From the UHGV virus genome UHGV-0287696: a stretch of DNA of 64,000 nt, one strand, 5' to 3'. The DNA is from a virus. The notes below the pieces were generated by a model that ran no database searches, was not told where the DNA came from, and saw only the letters and a list, made by a program, of their open reading frames with translations. Shown here piece by piece: positions 31,251 through 38,007 of this stretch; the first letter of the stretch is position 1, and each line of letters starts with the position of its first letter. The position numbers were made by a program, and so were the translations under genes.

Positions 31251-31922
31251 TTACAGCCCTTGCTCTAACGCAAACGCTTTAATTGAATCGTAATCACGTG
31301 CTTCAGCCCAAGCCCTGACTTCTCTTTTCTGCTCAGACATTGCGTGGTGTAGTCTTTGATCGCGCTCAACGATTGCTGCCAGCAACGTCTTGCACTGTTC
31401 TAACGTAAACGGTTCGATACGGGTGTTGTTAGCCGTTAACCAATACGCAGGCGCAGTTTCTGACTGGATATAACGACTCAGTGCTACCTGTGACTTCTCA
31501 TCTGCCTGGAAAGTGAAATCACCTACCTGAATCTCAGCATAGCGTGCATCTTGATAACGGAATTCCAAAGCGCTTAGAATTTTCTGAACATCGGTAAAGA
31601 TGTACCGCACCGTGGAACGTAAACCTGTACGAATTTCTTCCAGGTCAATCCCCAACGTGTCGTTAACAAAGTCTTTCGCTTTCTGTAGCGTAAACCGTGC
31701 TTCGATTTCAGACATGTCGTAGTTACGCATTTGTTCCAATGCTTCGCGATCAGACATCCCATCAATCAACTTATAGTGCAGTAACGCACAAAACCCTGTA
31801 CGGCCGTGATCTTCGCTACCGATTTTCTCCATGTAGTTACCATGGCGGTCAATCGGTAAATCGTGCGCAAAATAACGGCGACGGATTTCTTCTTTCGTTA
31901 AGCCTTCACCAGTAGCAGACAT
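31251..31922 (-). CDS. hypothetical protein, last gene of the radical-SAM operon
   Basis: 223 aa; AAGGAG Shine-Dalgarno; overlaps the upstream gene. Confidence 0.6.
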   Translation of the reverse strand: MSATGEGLTKEEIRRRYFAHDLPIDRHGNYMEKIGSEDHGRTGFCALLHYKLIDGMSDREALEQMRNYDMSEIEARFTLQKAKDFVNDTLGIDLEEIRTGLRSTVRYIFTDVQKILSALEFRYQDARYAEIQVGDFTFQADEKSQVALSRYIQSETAPAYWLTANNTRIEPFTLEQCKTLLAAIVERDQRLHHAMSEQKREVRAWAEARDYDSIKAFALEQGL

Positions 31923-32470
31923 TCATCGTCTCCTTTAATCAACCCTAATTCGATTAACAGTTCAAAATCGATATGACGGAATCTTGTGTCGAAGTCCGAT
32001 TCCCAATCGATACGGATACCCTGGCATTCTTCTGGCGTTAGCTCAGGAAAAATCACGCTATTAAATTTCTCCCGCTCATCGTAAAACCCATCAATCGGTG
32101 AGTTCGGGTTACGTGTTGCGAAGATAGTAATGCCGGGGAAGGACAATGCCAACACAGTGATAGATTCTGCGCTGGGTTCGCTTAAAGAGCGGCGTAGAAA
32201 CGCAATTTTGTGACGTGGGAAATCCAATACCCGTTCTTCAAACCCTGGGTTACGTTTTTCAATTTCCGCGACCGACAGGTCAGTAAGTTCGGTGCAGTAC
32301 ATTGGGATGATTACAGTCACACCGTGACGTATCAGCAAGCGTTTTACGTCATCGGTAAAATCTTCACCGTTAATCACCACATAACAACCGAATAGCTTAC
32401 TGTTTTCCAGAAACTTATCCAGAAGTCGAATTCTACGCTTCGTAATATTGTTGATCAGAATTGGTTTCAT
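31898..32470 (-). CDS. hypothetical protein co-operonic with the radical SAM enzymes
   Basis: 190 aa; start overlaps the 3' end of the radical SAM gene by 38 nt. Confidence 0.6.
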   Translation of the reverse strand: MKPILINNITKRRIRLLDKFLENSKLFGCYVVINGEDFTDDVKRLLIRHGVTVIIPMYCTELTDLSVAEIEKRNPGFEERVLDFPRHKIAFLRRSLSEPSAESITVLALSFPGITIFATRNPNSPIDGFYDEREKFNSVIFPELTPEECQGIRIDWESDFDTRFRHIDFELLIELGLIKGDDECLLLVKA

Positions 32471-33755
32471 CTTTGGCTTCTCTTAATAATTTTTCCTTTT
32501 GGGCACGTTCACGAACACAGCGTGGGCAATAACACATGCTCGTGTCGTGGAACGCTTTTGCTGACGTCGTACCCATCTTCTGTTTCCAGTATTCCGCCAC
32601 CATCAGTTTCGCTGTCGTCCAGCCACACTGACGTCGTTCAGCGTGATACGCTTTACGGTCTTCTAACGTTCCTTCCCCGTTCTCGTAAGAAGCCGCCGCG
32701 CAGCTACCACAAGCGTGTTTCATCGGACAACCTAAACAGGTCTCTGGGTAGTTGGTATATTGCGTTTGAATCTCTTCTAACAATTTACCGTTGTCCAGAC
32801 TGACGAATTCCCGACCTACCAACTCAAACACCGCAGAACGCGACGTTACCGTTGACATAAAGCGGTTACAGCCAAAGATCTTACGGTCAAACCCTAAGCA
32901 CGTCATGTGCGTTAACGTCCCACAGAACGGACGTAAGCGTTCTGGGTTCAACCGTACGGTGTCATTATACAGTAACTGGTCACGCCAGTTCGGTTCCCAA
33001 ATCGTATCGAAATCCAACCCTTCTGGAATGATGTGCGATAAGATATTACGTGGGTTGGTGTGTAATCCTTTCTCAACCCAGTAATCTATCACATCCATCA
33101 TCTGTAAAGCGATTGACGTCGCCATGCTACGCGGCATAACGTCTTCGAAAGTTACGTTTCCAGAAATTGTCCCACCGCCAGTAATGTCAATTAATGACTT
33201 CATCCCCGCAGCATAGAACGGCAGCGTTTCTAACGTAAAGGTTGCTTTTACGCCGAGCTCTGCAATGCCAACCTCTTTTAAGTAGTTATAGCCACGTACT
33301 GCGGCTTCGTAAGAACCCTGGCGTGTTGTTGTGAAGATACGATAACGGTCATGGGATTCAGGTAAGCCGTCAATCGAAACCCCAACTGAAAGTTTATCTT
33401 TCCAACGTTCTACGATCTCACGGTTCAACGGACGATCTAACAGCGTTCCGTTCGTGGAGATACTAAACATAAACGGTCGGTTGTGTTCTTTACACAACTG
33501 CTCAGCGGTTTCAAACGCAGCCAGCAGCAGTTTAGGCTGCATGAACGGCTCACCACCGATAATGTCGATAATAACTTCAACATTCGGTTCGTTTTTATCA
33601 CGTTCAAAACAGGCGTGTAAGAAATCAACAATATCCGCCGCTTTGTTGTTACGCGGGTACTTACGTTCGTAACAATATTCGCAGTCCAGGTTACACGAAA
33701 GGTTGGTTACGATCTGATACGTTAACTGCTTAGGGAATTCATTTACTTGACTCAT
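32433..33755 (-). CDS. radical SAM enzyme with C-terminal SPASM/twitch-like Cys cluster
   Basis: 440 aa; N-terminal CNLDCEYC (CxxxCxxC) 4Fe-4S/AdoMet motif and GGEPF glycine-rich motif; C-terminal CLGCPMKHACGSCAAA cluster typical of auxiliary Fe-S clusters in peptide-modifying radical SAM enzymes and anaerobic sulfatase maturases. Confidence 0.85.
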   Translation of the reverse strand: MSQVNEFPKQLTYQIVTNLSCNLDCEYCYERKYPRNNKAADIVDFLHACFERDKNEPNVEVIIDIIGGEPFMQPKLLLAAFETAEQLCKEHNRPFMFSISTNGTLLDRPLNREIVERWKDKLSVGVSIDGLPESHDRYRIFTTTRQGSYEAAVRGYNYLKEVGIAELGVKATFTLETLPFYAAGMKSLIDITGGGTISGNVTFEDVMPRSMATSIALQMMDVIDYWVEKGLHTNPRNILSHIIPEGLDFDTIWEPNWRDQLLYNDTVRLNPERLRPFCGTLTHMTCLGFDRKIFGCNRFMSTVTSRSAVFELVGREFVSLDNGKLLEEIQTQYTNYPETCLGCPMKHACGSCAAASYENGEGTLEDRKAYHAERRQCGWTTAKLMVAEYWKQKMGTTSAKAFHDTSMCYCPRCVRERAQKEKLLREAKDETNSDQQYYEA

Positions 33756-36760: not shown

Positions 36761-36791
36761 GGAGGACTACGCCCATAAGCATAGTTCCTCC
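36761..36791 (-). terminator. stem-loop with downstream U-run on the minus strand (attenuator/terminator)
   Basis: ggaggactacgcccataagcatagttcctcc with an A-run at 36745-36756 on the plus strand (U-run on the minus transcript); lies between the 401-aa fibre-like gene and Cys-rich peptide A. Confidence 0.5.
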
Positions 36792-36801
36792 TGTAATAAA
36801 G

Positions 36802-38007
36802 TTATTTCGTACCCGCTTCTGCCTGAACGTCATCACGGGACGTCAAGTTAGCGTTAACGTGTACTGGAGCCTGAACCACACCACCGTATTTCTTGTGGAG
36901 ATAGCCTGTGTGTGGGTTATCTGCCGCAATATGGTTTTGTAGGTTCTGATTCGCCTGACTGATTGCGTTCGTGTTATTCGCAACCTGTTGTTTAAGCGCA
37001 TCCAGGTTTTGTTGCAGATTATCAATTTTCTGATCGGACTCATTACCCCGTTGTTCTAACGCAGCAATGCGCTGAATCGCTTGGTTGAGTTTGGTGCTCA
37101 GATCGTTGATATTTTTCTGTAACTGTAACACCAGCGAATTTAGGTTCGCCAATGCCAATGCCATTTTCTGGTAGTTTTGTGCAACGATGTTAAGTTGGTC
37201 GTTCCACGCTTCCAAAGATTTGACAACAGCATCAATACGTTTTCCTAACGCTTCATCCGCTTTCTTCAACGCATTAATATCAGTAATGGTTGCATCGATG
37301 GCAGACTGTACATCACGGATAAGTGCACGGATCTCCGTTTCTGTTAACCCGTTAACCTGATGAATGTCCAGATGGTGGACGTTACCCGTGGCGTTAATGT
37401 GCGCGTTCAGCGCGTCCAGGAAATCGTTTTTCAGGCTTTCGAGAATCGCTTTGATGTTCTCAAGCTGTACAGCATCGCCCGCCGTTATCGCATCTTTAAT
37501 GCCAGCGAGCACTGTAATGATATATTCGAAGCCGTAAATATCGCCGACGTCTTTATACGTCGGTGCCGACGGAAATGTATCAGGAACATTTCGCAAGTCT
37601 TTAAAGCCAACAGTTCGATTATCGAGATTCAACTCAGCAATCGCCTGTTCTATCGCAGTCACGTTTGCCGACTGCGGACCCCCGACTACTTGCGCCGATA
37701 CCGTGATATCGGTCGGAATCGCGGTGTTCGTTACAACAACCGCCATTACCACTTCCCGGTTCTTCGTCAATTTCTCGTAAGCCGGGTGTGCAAAAATCAA
37801 CTCATAGTCCGTTCCGCGTTCATACGTCGCATCGGGGCGGTTAGCAACCCGCAAGCGGAACGTATCAGCATAAAACGGACCGTCAGGAAAAGCAAACGCA
37901 CGGTTAACTTTACCTGTACCTAACGTAACCTGACGCTCCACGGCGTTAGAGGTTAGGGTTCCCGTTAAATCTAAAGGGTATTGGTATACAATGGAGGCCA
38001 TGGCCAC
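36802..38007 (-). CDS. fibre-like structural protein with coiled-coil region
   Basis: 401 aa; N-terminal module (FPDGPFYADTFRLRV...GTDYELIF) shared with the three larger upstream genes; long heptad-like helix (LNSLVLQLQKNINDLSTKLNQAIQRIAALEQ); HHLDIH motif. Confidence 0.7.
   Translation of the reverse strand: MAMASIVYQYPLDLTGTLTSNAVERQVTLGTGKVNRAFAFPDGPFYADTFRLRVANRPDATYERGTDYELIFAHPAYEKLTKNREVVMAVVVTNTAIPTDITVSAQVVGGPQSANVTAIEQAIAELNLDNRTVGFKDLRNVPDTFPSAPTYKDVGDIYGFEYIITVLAGIKDAITAGDAVQLENIKAILESLKNDFLDALNAHINATGNVHHLDIHQVNGLTETEIRALIRDVQSAIDATITDINALKKADEALGKRIDAVVKSLEAWNDQLNIVAQNYQKMALALANLNSLVLQLQKNINDLSTKLNQAIQRIAALEQRGNESDQKIDNLQQNLDALKQQVANNTNAISQANQNLQNHIAADNPHTGYLHKKYGGVVQAPVHVNANLTSRDDVQAEAGTK

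What the first reader, a model, noticed from the sequence alone, without database searches (positions are those of the whole stretch)
31251..38007. Peptide-maturation-like module (Cys-rich peptides plus two radical SAM enzymes) inside a tail fibre operon
On the minus strand, downstream of three giant fibre genes and a 401-aa fibre-like gene, lie three Cys-rich peptide genes, a 295-aa unknown, two translationally coupled radical SAM genes (CxxxCxxC plus C-terminal Cys clusters) and two more unknowns, closed by a bidirectional terminator at 31198. Precursor peptides next to radical SAM/SPASM enzymes is the architecture of sactipeptide or ranthipeptide (RiPP) clusters, yet here it is co-transcribed with virion structural genes. 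Possible readings: radical-SAM crosslinking of a Cys-rich fibre tip or whisker, a phage-made modified peptide, or formylglycine-type Cys/Ser oxidation. I know of no described phage system with this layout.
Basis: partly seen in the sequence, partly recalled or inferred. Interest (0 to 1): 0.93.

Follow-up and report, generated by a model that had tools for sequence, protein, structure and literature searches.

The report
Radical-SAM maturation module for cysteine-repeat tail fibres
A giant Salmonella-type phage places small proteins made of about 20 Cys-x-x-x repeats next to two radical SAM enzymes at the end of its tail-fibre operon, and the same set recurs in unrelated phages fused to the tips of real tail fibres, which suggests these enzymes chemically modify phage fibres, something not yet described.

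Summary
On the minus strand, after three giant fibre genes and a 401-aa virion fibre protein, lie three paralogous Cys-repeat genes (131, 132 and 68 aa). They are followed by a 295-aa orphan protein, a 307-aa radical SAM gene, a 440-aa radical SAM/SPASM-type gene, two clade-specific genes and a bidirectional terminator.

The window is an SPN3US-like jumbo phage, and about 60 sequenced relatives carry the module. Their Cys-repeat genes are usually unannotated or called in the wrong frame.

Homologues of the large enzyme at 33-40% identity sit in unrelated P2-like and lambda-like prophages. There the CXXX repeat forms the C-terminal end of recognisable tail-fibre proteins. A homologue of the 295-aa protein and, usually, the small radical SAM enzyme follow it.

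In 80 IMG/VR loci, 127 CXXX runs lie within 4 kb of the enzyme and 4 lie farther away. All but one of the 131 are on the enzyme's strand.

The enzyme profiles as a distant relative of the CXXX-repeat-target and PapB peptide maturases.

The best reading is enzymatic modification, probably thioether cross-linking, of a Cys-repeat fibre-tip module, not a secreted peptide. The chemistry and virion location are inferred. I found no published description.

The parts
36802..38007 (-). 401-aa coiled-coil fibre-like virion protein with no Cys, the orthologue of SPN3US gp167. It lies directly upstream of the Cys-repeat genes.
   Evidence: Matches phrog_2163 'virion structural protein' at 8.6e-104. SPN3US gp167 was detected in purified virions as a non-head protein (PMC5694885 Supp. 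Table 1). Found only in the jumbo-phage clade.
36339..36737 (-). CXXX-repeat protein A: 131 aa from the ATG at 36734, with 21 Cys. It has a ~50-aa N-terminal region, the junction motif DCGGSCSWTCS, then CXXX/CXX units to the C-terminus.
   Evidence: Matches phrog_6085 at 1.6e-40. Weak match to TIGR04114 at 14.4 bits. Conserved in about 60 phages. Third-position bias of substitutions.
35930..36328 (-). CXXX-repeat protein B: 132 aa, 20 Cys. A paralogue of protein A.
   Evidence: Matches phrog_6085 at 4.7e-38. Matches TIGR04114 at 20.4 bits against a cutoff of 20. Alignments A3/A4 show invariant Cys columns and a conserved YxC..CSWTC junction. AF2 leaves the repeat unmodelled, with pLDDT below 50.
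35721..35927 (-). Short paralogue C: 68 aa, starting at a GTG. It has the same N-terminal region and the junction NCNGGCSWSCSGSC, but only 4 Cys.
   Evidence: Matches phrog_6085 at 2.5e-24. The SPN3US orthologue starts at the same point. A relative, P0188, carries a ~150-aa non-Cys domain after the same motif.
34684..35571 (-). 295-aa accessory protein with an orphan fold, the orthologue of SPN3US gp165. It is conserved with the module across unrelated phage types.
33739..34662 (-). Small radical SAM enzyme: 307 aa, with CX3CX2C at 28/32/35 and three conserved C-terminal Cys at 245, 248 and 274. Orthologue of SPN3US gp164.
   Evidence: PF04055 at 53 bits against a cutoff of 29.5. Best solved relative by sequence is SkfB at 3e-6. 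Conserved Cys columns. No SPASM hit. Fused to the large enzyme in L032.
32433..33755 (-). Large radical SAM/SPASM-type enzyme: 440 aa, with CX3CX2C at 21/25/28 and 8 conserved C-terminal Cys at 278, 286, 296, 340, 343, 349, 352 and 377. Orthologue of SPN3US gp163.
   Evidence: PF04055 at 57 bits. PapB NF047865 at 1.2e-33 and TIGR04115 at 6.5e-33 over profile positions 3-345 of 359. TIGR04085 SPASM at 26.0 bits against a cutoff of 27. CteB (5wgg) is the best PDB sequence match. Cys conservation in A2.
31898..32470 (-). 190-aa protein of unknown function, orthologue of SPN3US gp162. Overlaps both neighbouring genes. Specific to the jumbo-phage clade.
   Evidence: Matches phrog_7988 only. Found only in the 14 jumbo-phage loci. 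Not detected in SPN3US virions.
31251..31922 (-). 223-aa DUF4376 protein, orthologue of SPN3US gp161. Last gene of the transcription unit. Possibly a fibre-assembly factor.
   Evidence: PF14301 at 43.5 bits against a cutoff of 25. Weak PHROG matches to tail fibre and tail proteins. Jumbo clade only. Not detected in virions.
31197..31227 (.). Bidirectional intrinsic-terminator-like hairpin that closes the minus-strand unit and the convergent plus-strand genes.
   Evidence: A 13-bp stem with 6 GC pairs and T runs on both strands.

Best explanation
This is a tail-fibre maturation module, not a natural-product cluster.

The substrate. The three small Cys-repeat proteins are stand-alone versions of a module that in other phages forms the extreme C-terminal (distal) end of tail-fibre proteins. 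The module has a short helical stalk, a conserved junction (N-A-x-x-L-x-G-Q...Y-Y/D-C-x-G-C-S-W-T-C), and then 10-90 repeats of C-[S/T]-[G/S]-x.

The proposed steps:
1. The Cys-repeat proteins are made late in infection in the reducing cytoplasm, together with the fibres.
2. The repeat segment is modified by the 440-aa radical SAM/SPASM-type enzyme. This enzyme is a distant relative of the CXXX-repeat-target/PapB/SCIFF group of peptide maturases.
3. The 307-aa radical SAM enzyme and the 295-aa orphan accessory protein assist. They probably form a complex with the large enzyme that binds or presents the substrate.
4. The modified proteins are then assembled onto the virion fibre apparatus. The enzymes and accessory proteins stay behind in the cell.

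The most likely chemistry is a series of Cys-sulfur-to-carbon thioether cross-links. These would turn an otherwise unstructured Cys/Ser/Gly segment into a rigid rod or knob that is stable to redox change and to proteases.

What is shown here: the gene content, the homologies, the co-occurrence, the fusions to fibres, and the absence of the enzymes from virions in SPN3US.

What is inferred: that the repeats are the substrate, the thioether chemistry, complex formation, and the virion location of the jumbo-phage proteins.
For: 1. Enzyme identity.
- Both enzymes pass PF04055.
- The large enzyme's best profiles are PapB (117 bits) and TIGR04115, the CXXX-repeat-target maturase (115 bits, near full length). 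These are followed by other peptide maturases; QhpD and the SCIFF maturase rank sixth and eighth.
- The best solved relative by sequence is CteB.
- Eight SPASM-region Cys are conserved in 27 homologues.
- TIGR04085 scores 26.0 bits against a cutoff of 27.

2. Coupling of enzyme and repeat.
- 78 of 80 IMG/VR loci that hold a homologue of the large enzyme have a CXXX-run ORF.
- 127 runs lie within 4 kb and 4 lie beyond, with about equal amounts of sequence in each class. 130 of the 131 are on the enzyme's strand, and the median distance is 1.1 kb.
- The more distant loci carry enzymes that are bona fide TIGR04115 members, scoring 434 and 385 bits against a cutoff of 350.

3. The fibre link.
- In a Campylobacter P2-like prophage, the gpH-type fibre (PF12571; phrog_327 at 1e-54) ends in a CXXX run. 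It is followed by an accessory homologue and two radical SAM genes, before the sheath gene.
- In Deferribacter and a metagenomic lambda-like prophage, a fibre with HxHDxRYYTE repeats lies downstream of the GpJ gene. It ends in '...NADQLGGQAGSYYRCSDCSWTCS...' followed by CXXX repeats, then the accessory protein and radical SAM genes.
- Further viral loci show tail-fibre PHROG domains joined to a C-terminal phrog_6085 region.

4. A four-part module.
- The accessory proteins are homologous across jumbo, P2-like and lambda-like contexts.
- The small and large enzymes are fused into one 686-aa protein in L032.

5. SPN3US proteomics. gp167-173 are virion (non-head) proteins, while gp161-165 were not detected in virions (PMC5694885). 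This fits enzymes and chaperones.

6. AF2 does not fold the repeat (pLDDT below 50). This fits a segment whose structure depends on modification or oligomerisation.
Against: - No direct evidence places the jumbo-phage Cys-repeat proteins in the virion. They were absent from the SPN3US search database because 'gp166' is a wrong-frame ORF, so the published data neither support nor refute this.
- In the jumbo phages the repeat is not fused to a fibre, so attachment is inferred from relatives.
- The window's enzymes score far below the curated cutoffs of every named family, so the chemistry cannot be transferred with confidence.
- The repeats lack the Asp/Glu acceptors used by PapB and QhpD.
- No substrate-recognition (RRE) domain was found.
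- The role of the second enzyme and of the accessory protein is unknown. Two related loci, L024 and L026, lack the small enzyme.
Confidence: 0.65

Rival explanations
1. The target and setting are the same (a Cys-repeat fibre module modified by the radical SAM pair), but the chemistry is not thioether cross-linking. Alternatives include anSME-like oxidation of Cys/Ser to formylglycine, epimerisation, C-C or other cross-links, or preparation of the Cys ladder for metal or Fe-S binding.
For: - The window enzymes fall below all curated family cutoffs.
- anSME is the second-best solved relative by sequence, and TIGR03942 gives 59 bits.
- The position after each Cys is Ser/Thr in 74-92% of units, and the repeats contain essentially no Asp/Glu acceptor.
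- The SPASM region has 8 conserved Cys. From memory, anSME's two auxiliary clusters are likewise fully Cys-ligated.
Against: - The two top profile matches, and most of the strongest ones, are peptide maturases. PapB, QhpD and the SCIFF maturase among them make thioethers, and other named families in the list act on Cys-rich substrates.
- The sulfatase-type target motif C/S-x-P/A-x-R (from memory) is absent from the repeats.
- Metal binding alone would not need two radical SAM enzymes.
Confidence: 0.2
2. A phage-made RiPP. The small Cys-repeat proteins are precursor peptides with a ~50-aa leader and a core. The radical SAM enzymes modify them, and they are released at lysis as a bacteriocin-like, signalling or anti-competitor peptide unrelated to the virion.
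For: - The jumbo-phage proteins are small and free-standing, with a conserved N-terminal region followed by a Cys-rich 'core'. This looks like a leader-core layout.
- The enzyme family is nearest to RiPP maturases.
- One record's automatic annotation names the enzymes AlbA and MoaA.
Against: - In other phages the same domain, with the same junction motif, is the C-terminus of 250-570-aa proteins carrying tail-fibre domains.
- No protease, transporter, immunity gene or RRE is present.
- The genes sit between virion fibre genes and their non-virion assembly genes, in one overlapping gene set.
- The 'leader' aligns with the distal stalk of real fibres.
Confidence: 0.08
3. The neighbourhood is coincidental. 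The radical SAM genes are auxiliary metabolic or nucleotide-modifying genes, as earlier genome papers assumed, and the Cys-rich ORFs are unrelated structural or metal-binding proteins, or are not genes at all.
For: - The literature on Seoulvirus genomes describes the radical SAM genes as enhancing host metabolism (PMC6614189).
- The small enzyme has weak matches to MoaA, QueE, NrdG and viperin profiles.
Against: - There is a strong, strand-specific co-occurrence of CXXX runs with the enzyme across 80 loci: 127 runs near and 4 far.
- The four-part module is conserved across three unrelated phage morphotypes.
- Substitution patterns indicate purifying selection in the Cys frame.
- The top profile matches are peptide maturases, not nucleotide enzymes.
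Confidence: 0.04

Closest known systems
CXXX-repeat peptide radical SAM maturation system (NCBIfam/TIGRFAMs TIGR04115 enzyme with TIGR04114/TIGR04117 Cys-Xaa-Xaa-Xaa repeat targets). As far as I know it is defined by comparative genomics only.
   Same: - A radical SAM enzyme with a SPASM-type C-terminus sits next to a protein made of tandem CXXX units.
- The window enzyme aligns to nearly the whole TIGR04115 profile (positions 3-345 of 359).
- One window repeat protein reaches the TIGR04114 cutoff.
- More distant phage loci fetched here carry true TIGR04115 members (434 and 385 bits).
   Different: - The window enzyme scores 115 bits against a cutoff of 350, so it belongs to a divergent sister group.
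- That group carries two extra conserved partners, the small radical SAM enzyme and the 250-300-aa orphan accessory protein.
- Its substrate is the end of a tail fibre.
- I found no paper that connects the family to phage fibres.
PapB/freyrasin and CteB/SCIFF ranthipeptide maturases (thioether-forming radical SAM/SPASM enzymes)
   Same: - PapB is the best-scoring named profile (117 bits).
- CteB is the best solved relative by sequence.
- Their substrates have repeated Cys. PapB acts on repeated C-x3-D units, which have the same 4-residue period (from memory).
   Different: - The window enzyme is far below the curated cutoffs (117 against 340, and 59.5 against 425).
- Its radical SAM core starts at residue ~20, so there is no N-terminal RRE domain.
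- The repeats contain essentially no Asp/Glu.
- The substrates are 130-570-aa structural proteins, not ~45-aa peptides.
QhpD, the radical SAM/SPASM enzyme that installs Cys-to-Asp/Glu thioethers in the gamma subunit of quinohemoprotein amine dehydrogenase
   Same: It is a precedent (from memory) for radical SAM thioether cross-linking of a protein that stays part of a larger assembly and is not an exported peptide. The profile match is TIGR03906 at 61 bits.
   Different: The score is well below the cutoff of 453. The acceptor residues and the cellular role differ. It is not phage-related.
His-Xaa-Ser system (HxsB/HxsC), a pair of a SPASM radical SAM enzyme and a shorter radical SAM enzyme acting on a repeat peptide
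   Same: A large and a small radical SAM enzyme are encoded side by side next to a short-period repeat substrate. The window pair gives weak hits to both profiles (75 bits to HxsB, 39 bits to HxsC).
   Different: Both scores are far below the cutoffs of 370 and 268. The repeat is HXS, not CXXX. The HxsB/HxsC system is itself uncharacterised, and it has no fibre context.
Phage tail-fibre assembly factors (P2 gpG/Tfa, T4 gp38/gp57A) and covalent virion reinforcement (HK97 capsid isopeptide chainmail)
   Same: - The genes sit immediately after the fibre gene, at the position where P2 carries its fibre-assembly gene G (from memory; one search shows the accessory and radical SAM genes directly after the fibre gene in the P2-like prophage).
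- Their products are absent from the virion.
- The proposed outcome is a covalently stabilised virion part.
   Different: The known chaperones are not enzymes, and HK97 cross-links form autocatalytically. Here, dedicated radical SAM enzymes would do the chemistry. No sequence or fold similarity to known chaperones was found for the accessory protein.

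Membership tests
Radical SAM superfamily (PF04055) | CX3CX2C cluster motif and a Pfam score above the gathering threshold | tested here: met
   The 440-aa enzyme scores 57.0 bits and the 307-aa enzyme 53.0 bits, against a cutoff of 29.5. The motifs are at C21/25/28 and C28/32/35 and are invariant in homologues.
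SPASM-domain radical SAM enzymes (TIGR04085 / PF13186) | C-terminal domain with the 7-8 Cys pattern that binds two auxiliary 4Fe-4S clusters, detected by the domain model | tested here: inconclusive
   For the 440-aa enzyme, TIGR04085 gives 26.0 bits against a cutoff of 27, covering profile positions 1-86 of 93. Pfam PF13186 gives no hit. Eight Cys (278, 286, 296, 340, 343, 349, 352, 377) are invariant or nearly so in 27 homologues. For the 307-aa enzyme there is no SPASM hit and only 3 conserved C-terminal Cys.
TIGR04115 radical SAM peptide maturase, CXXX-repeat target family | Whole-protein score at or above the curated cutoff of 350 bits | tested here: not met
   The window enzyme scores 114.7 bits. 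The Deferribacter and Campylobacter homologues score 155 and 144 bits. The gut-phage loci L036 and L057 do pass, at 434 and 385 bits.
TIGR04115/TIGR04114 system | An adjacent target protein built of tandem Cys-Xaa-Xaa-Xaa repeats | tested here: met
   There are 20-21 Cys, almost all at spacing 4 (occasionally 3), in two adjacent proteins. TIGR04114 gives 20.4 bits against a cutoff of 20 for one, and 14.4 and 12.4 bits for the other two. 78 of 80 related loci have a CXXX-run ORF.
PapB-family ranthipeptide maturase (NF047865) | Score at or above 340 bits, and a substrate with C-x3-D/E units | tested here: not met
   The score is 116.8 bits. Asp/Glu are essentially absent from 512 CXXX units.
Sactipeptide/ranthipeptide RiPP gene cluster | A leader-dependent precursor with an RRE (PqqD-like) domain in or beside the maturase, plus a leader protease and/or exporter | tested here: not met
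Thioether (sactionine/ranthionine) cross-linked product | S-C bonds between Cys and acceptor residues, seen as a loss of 2 Da per link | not testable with these tools
   This needs mass spectrometry or NMR of the modified protein.
Anaerobic sulfatase-maturating enzyme (TIGR03942) | Score at or above 349 bits, and a C/S-x-P/A-x-R target motif | tested here: not met
   The score is 59.2 bits. The motif (as recalled from memory) is absent from the repeat proteins.
His-Xaa-Ser paired radical SAM system (HxsB TIGR03978 / HxsC TIGR03977) | Both enzymes above their cutoffs (370 and 267.9), and an HXS-repeat peptide | tested here: not met
   The scores are 75.3 and 38.9 bits. The repeat is CXXX.
Phage tail fibre protein (for the Cys-repeat proteins) | Physical continuity with a fibre (N-terminal attachment or shaft domains), or presence in the virion tail | tested here: inconclusive
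   Met in relatives: L005 carries the PF12571 gpH-type domain, and L026, L032 and L024 carry tail-fibre PHROG domains, each joined to a C-terminal CXXX/phrog_6085 region. The window's proteins are stand-alone, and their presence in virions has not been tested. The SPN3US mass-spectrometry database lacked them.
DUF4376 (PF14301), for the last gene | Pfam score above the gathering threshold | tested here: met
   The score is 43.5 bits against a cutoff of 25. Domain membership alone does not establish function.

The most novel reading that the evidence does not exclude
Many tailed phages build part of their host-recognition fibres from a Cys-x-x-x repeat polymer that has no intrinsic fold. Dedicated radical SAM enzymes staple it in the host cytoplasm into a ladder of thioether (or other radical-derived) cross-links. 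This would be RiPP chemistry used to manufacture a covalently reinforced virion structure. It would define a new class of enzymatic virion maturation, and a new role for the uncharacterised CXXX-repeat maturase family.
Probability: 0.45. Interest if true: 0.9.

Novelty: new variant of a known kind. Interest (0 to 1): 0.82.

Why it matters
- **New kind of virion maturation.** Tail fibres decide host range, and no radical-SAM-dependent modification of a virion protein has been described in the literature I could search. If confirmed, this would add an enzymatic maturation step for fibres. It would also give the orphan CXXX-repeat maturase family its first biological role and a tractable substrate.
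- **Practical annotation problem.** The Cys-repeat genes are missed or mis-framed in most deposited genomes, including the model phage SPN3US. Proteomic and structural studies of these phages have therefore been blind to them.
- **Phage engineering.** Fibres of this type would need their enzymes co-transferred, and the host would need Fe-S and SAM capacity, for them to function.
- **Directly testable.** SPN3US has an amber-mutant genetic system and published virion mass-spectrometry data that can be re-searched.

Tried and rejected
- **Structure of a Cys-repeat protein.** AF2 with a 19-sequence alignment gave mean pLDDT 48 and left the repeat unmodelled, so no structural inference is possible.
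- **SPASM domain by Pfam.** No hit even on the isolated C-terminus. I accepted only a borderline TIGR04085 match plus the Cys pattern.
- **Literature.** Ten full-text searches found no description of the system. They found only passing remarks. The SPN3US infection-proteome paper (Weintraub 2019) is not held, so expression timing of gp161-165 could not be checked.
- **Locus L008.** It has two paralogous large enzymes at 28% identity and no CXXX run within 15 kb, so it may use a different substrate.
- **The gut-phage 'Group II' loci.** The N-terminal domains of their Cys-rich proteins and their neighbours gave almost no informative PHROG hits. I do not claim a fibre role for them.
- **The 190-aa and DUF4376 genes.** I considered them part of the universal module and rejected that, because they occur only in the jumbo-phage clade.
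- **Pfam PF27846.** It is precomputed on several homologues of the Cys-rich proteins but is not in the local Pfam copy, so its name and curators' view are unknown.

Full report
**What the window is**

The region is about 73% identical in DNA to Salmonella phage SPN3US (Seoulvirus, a phiKZ-like jumbo phage) and to Erwinia jumbo phages. A 225-kb IMG/VR contig, IMGVR_UViG_3300029126_000001, is 100% identical over the large radical SAM protein and is therefore presumably the source. Gene for gene, the finding corresponds to SPN3US genes 161-167.

**Checking the observation**

- Three giant genes of 1440, 1401 and 1727 aa.
- A 401-aa Cys-free coiled-coil protein at 36802-38007.
- Three paralogous Cys-rich genes at 36339-36734, 35930-36328 and 35721-35927.
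- A 295-aa protein at 34684-35571.
- A 307-aa radical SAM gene at 33739-34662.
- A 440-aa radical SAM gene at 32433-33755, overlapping the previous one by 17 nt.
- Two further overlapping genes at 31898-32470 and 31251-31922.
- A 13-bp-stem bidirectional terminator at 31197-31227.

The two long Cys-rich proteins have 21 and 20 Cys, spaced 4 residues apart with occasional 3s and one 8-residue gap. After a ~50-residue N-terminal region they are therefore CXXX-repeat proteins. The third has only four Cys and is 68 aa, starting at a GTG preceded by GGGAGG.

Because the repeat DNA is open in several frames, I checked the coding frame. Between the window and SPN3US, differences concentrate on third codon positions (28/31/78 and 37/24/69). 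The repeat cysteines stay aligned apart from a one-residue indel in one of the two proteins.

**The enzymes**

Both pass the Pfam radical SAM threshold.

The 440-aa protein:
- Its best NCBIfam profiles are the PapB ranthipeptide maturase (116.8 bits) and TIGR04115, 'radical SAM peptide maturase, CXXX-repeat target family' (114.7 bits, covering profile positions 3-345 of 359).
- These are followed by other peptide maturases. QhpD and the SCIFF maturase rank sixth and eighth.
- All scores are far below the curated cutoffs.
- The best solved relative by sequence is CteB, the SCIFF thioether maturase, followed by anSME.
- In an alignment of 27 homologues down to 27% identity, the CX3CX2C Cys and eight C-terminal Cys (278, 286, 296, 340, 343, 349, 352, 377) are invariant or nearly so.
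- The isolated C-terminus scores 26.0 bits on the SPASM domain model, against a cutoff of 27. Pfam's SPASM model does not hit.

The 307-aa protein:
- It has CX3CX2C and three conserved C-terminal Cys at 245, 248 and 274.
- It has no SPASM match.
- Its best solved relative by sequence is SkfB.

Neither enzyme has an N-terminal extension that could hold an RRE domain.

**The Cys-repeat proteins are ends of tail fibres**

Distant homologues of the large enzyme, at 33-40% identity, come from prophages of quite different types.

*Campylobacter pinnipediorum.* The prophage is P2-like, with baseplate W/J/I, sheath, tube, tape measure, gpU and gpX genes.
- The gpH-type tail fibre (PF12571; tail-fibre PHROGs down to about 1e-54) ends in '...GCNGCSGSCSGSCSSGCTACSGCSGSCSG...'.
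- It is followed directly by a 250-aa protein, a 400-aa radical SAM gene and a 284-aa radical SAM gene, and then the sheath gene.
- This is the position where P2 carries its fibre-assembly gene G (from memory).

*Deferribacter abyssi and a metagenomic contig.* Both are lambda-like, carrying a GpJ gene.
- A 258-302-aa fibre with HxHDxRYYTE shaft repeats ends in '...NADQLGGQAGSYYRCSDCSWTCSSSC...' followed by CXXX repeats.
- That junction is the same as the window's '...NNADLFGGQARNHYDCGGSCSWTCSSC...'.
- It is again followed by a 250-277-aa protein and two or three radical SAM genes.

*Homology across the contexts.* The 250-277-aa proteins are homologous to each other and to the window's 295-aa protein (BLASTP E of 1e-8 to 1e-13; one indirect pair, Campylobacter against the window, is only 0.058). 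The small radical SAM proteins are also mutually homologous.

*Other IMG/VR loci.* Further loci (L023-L033) show the same pattern. Proteins of 255-570 aa have tail-fibre PHROG domains in front and the phrog_6085 Cys-repeat region at the extreme C-terminus.

*What this means for the window.* The window's small proteins align with just the distal stalk plus repeat of these fibres.

**Strength of the association**

A scan of IMG/VR with the enzyme alignment found at least 493 relatives. I examined the best 80.
- 78 have an ORF with at least five consecutive C-x2-3 units.
- 127 runs lie within 4 kb of the enzyme (608 kb of sequence) and 4 lie farther away (548 kb).
- 130 of the 131 are on the enzyme's strand, and the median distance is 1.1 kb.

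Two groups appear:
- **Group I** (enzyme at least 31% identical to the window's; it includes the jumbo phages) has the accessory protein in nearly all loci and usually the small radical SAM enzyme. In L032 the small and large enzymes are fused into one 686-aa protein. L024 and L026 lack the small enzyme.
- **Group II** (24-28% identical; mostly large uncultured phage contigs) has only the large enzyme plus proteins with up to 92 Cys. Its enzymes are true TIGR04115 members, at 434 and 385 bits.

The window's system is therefore a divergent, augmented branch of the CXXX-repeat maturase family.

The accessory family is small. A profile of the jumbo-clade sequences finds 45 cluster representatives among 1.84 billion proteins.

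**Virion or not**

In SPN3US, gp167, gp168-170 (fibre candidates) and gp171-173 were found in purified virions as non-head proteins. gp161-165 were not detected (PMC5694885, Supp. Table 1). This matches structural genes followed by non-virion maturation and assembly factors.

The Cys-repeat proteins could not have been seen in that study:
- SPN3US 'gp166' is a 111-aa ORF in the wrong frame, and the real 130-, 134- and 68-aa genes are unannotated.
- The same holds for most related records, where no feature lies under the match.
- In one Erwinia phage record, opposite-strand ORFs are annotated instead.
- The exact 131/132-aa sequences are absent from a 15-billion-protein collection that does contain this phage's other proteins.

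**Mechanism**

What is shown:
- A conserved module of a CXXX-ended fibre protein, an orphan accessory protein, a large SPASM-type radical SAM enzyme and usually a small radical SAM enzyme.
- Its placement after fibre genes.
- Its spread across jumbo myoviruses, P2-like myoviruses and lambda-like siphoviruses.

What is inferred:
- The repeat is the enzymes' substrate.
- The enzymes act as a complex. The L032 fusion supports this.
- The product is multiply cross-linked, most likely through thioethers.

The thioether inference rests on two things. The best profile match (PapB), the best solved relative (CteB) and two further matches (QhpD, the SCIFF maturase) are thioether formers. From general knowledge, several related SPASM enzymes that act on Cys-rich targets also make S-C links.

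A rationale for thioethers: disulfides cannot form in the cytoplasm and would be labile in reducing habitats, whereas thioethers would fix a Cys/Ser/Gly segment that AF2 treats as unstructured.

The unit consensus is C-[S/T, 74%]-[G 55%/S 22%]-[S/G/T], with essentially no Asp/Glu. The acceptor therefore cannot be the one PapB or QhpD use. This keeps other chemistries open, including formylglycine-type oxidation.

**What is known**

The closest described entity is the TIGR04115/TIGR04114 pairing. As far as I know it is a comparative-genomics prediction without biochemistry.

I found no paper linking it, or any radical SAM enzyme, to fibre maturation. Published remarks are limited to two:
- A suggestion that Seoulvirus radical SAM genes boost host metabolism (PMC6614189).
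- A note that eight radical SAM genes inside the structural cluster of the Aeromonas chimallivirus 332-Vera are 'highly unusual' (PMC12390700).

A recent Pfam entry, PF27846, covers the Cys-rich family. It is not in the local copy, so its description is unknown.

**Verdict**

The enzymology is of a known kind. The fibre context, the extra partners and the breadth across phages appear to be new. The main uncertainties are the chemistry and whether the free-standing jumbo-phage proteins are in the virion. Both can be settled by straightforward mass spectrometry and by genetics in SPN3US.

Noticed in passing
L001 (NC_027402) 15167-16196; L003 (JN641803) 9385-9720: SPN3US 'gp166' (111 aa) is an ORF in the wrong frame, laid over the real Cys-repeat genes of 130, 134 and 68 aa. 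Those genes are unannotated in both GenBank and RefSeq, so published SPN3US proteomics could not detect them.
   Followed up: yes
L002 (Erwinia phage pEa_SNUABM_29) 14236-14508 and 14743-14955: This record annotates plus-strand 'hypothetical proteins' over the minus-strand CXXX genes. Many other related records have no feature at all under the match. The exact 131/132-aa window proteins are also missing from a 15-billion-protein collection.
   Followed up: partly
L032 7131-9191 (IMGVR_UViG_3300028886_000034): A single 686-aa ORF fuses a small-radical-SAM-like domain (residues 13-219) to a large radical SAM/SPASM domain (residues 288-665). This argues that the two enzymes work together.
   Followed up: yes
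L021 4564-5487 (IMGVR_UViG_3300045988_078609, 93% relative of the window phage): An extra paralogue of the small radical SAM gene sits between the two Cys-repeat genes. The module therefore varies in copy number even among close relatives.
   Followed up: no
L034-L088 (e.g. L036 5786-7228, L044 5925-7010, L063 6659-7960): Large uncultured phage contigs encode proteins with 45-92 Cys in CXXX repeats next to genuine TIGR04115 enzymes. Many share an N-terminal 'DFxxLKxxxxxExxRRG'-type domain of unknown function. Some (L057) have the repeat at the N-terminus instead.
   Followed up: partly
P0188 (220 aa, metagenomic homologue of window 35721-35927): In this relative, the short paralogue's CGGSCSWTCSGSC motif is followed by a ~150-aa non-Cys domain. 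The junction motif may therefore be a general connector and not just the start of a repeat.
   Followed up: no
P0184 (166 aa): A CXXX-repeat protein with a twin-arginine-like signal (SRREFFKKAAKGALPILG). It looks like a secreted bacterial version of the repeat family and contrasts with the phage fibre versions.
   Followed up: no
L008 3398-4576 and 7001-8251 (ENA ERZ1667818 scaffold_50): Two paralogous large radical SAM/SPASM genes (about 28% identical to the window's) lie among very large ORFs, with no CXXX run within 15 kb. This may be a related system with a different substrate.
   Followed up: partly
Phage records LR535901, LR535903-05, LR535907-08, LR535911-12 (SPFM1, 5, 6, 7, 9, 10, 12, 14) and proteins P0081, P0082, P0084, P0089, P0157-P0161 (SPFM1, 8, 9, 10, 14, 15, 20): In a subset of SPFM Salmonella phages, the radical SAM and accessory genes give strong HMMER scores but only 5-21% BLAST coverage. 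This suggests frameshifted or degraded copies, or sequencing errors.
   Followed up: no
window 29423-29962 (-): A 179-aa ORF whose N-terminal region contains a lipobox-like sequence (…GVFSLAGC). It lies between convergent structural genes and could be a lipoprotein.
   Followed up: no
PMC12390700 (Aeromonas phage vB_AerVM_332-Vera): The authors report eight radical SAM genes inside the tail-fibre/structural cluster of another chimallivirus, without assigning a function. This could be an expanded version of the same kind of module.
   Followed up: no
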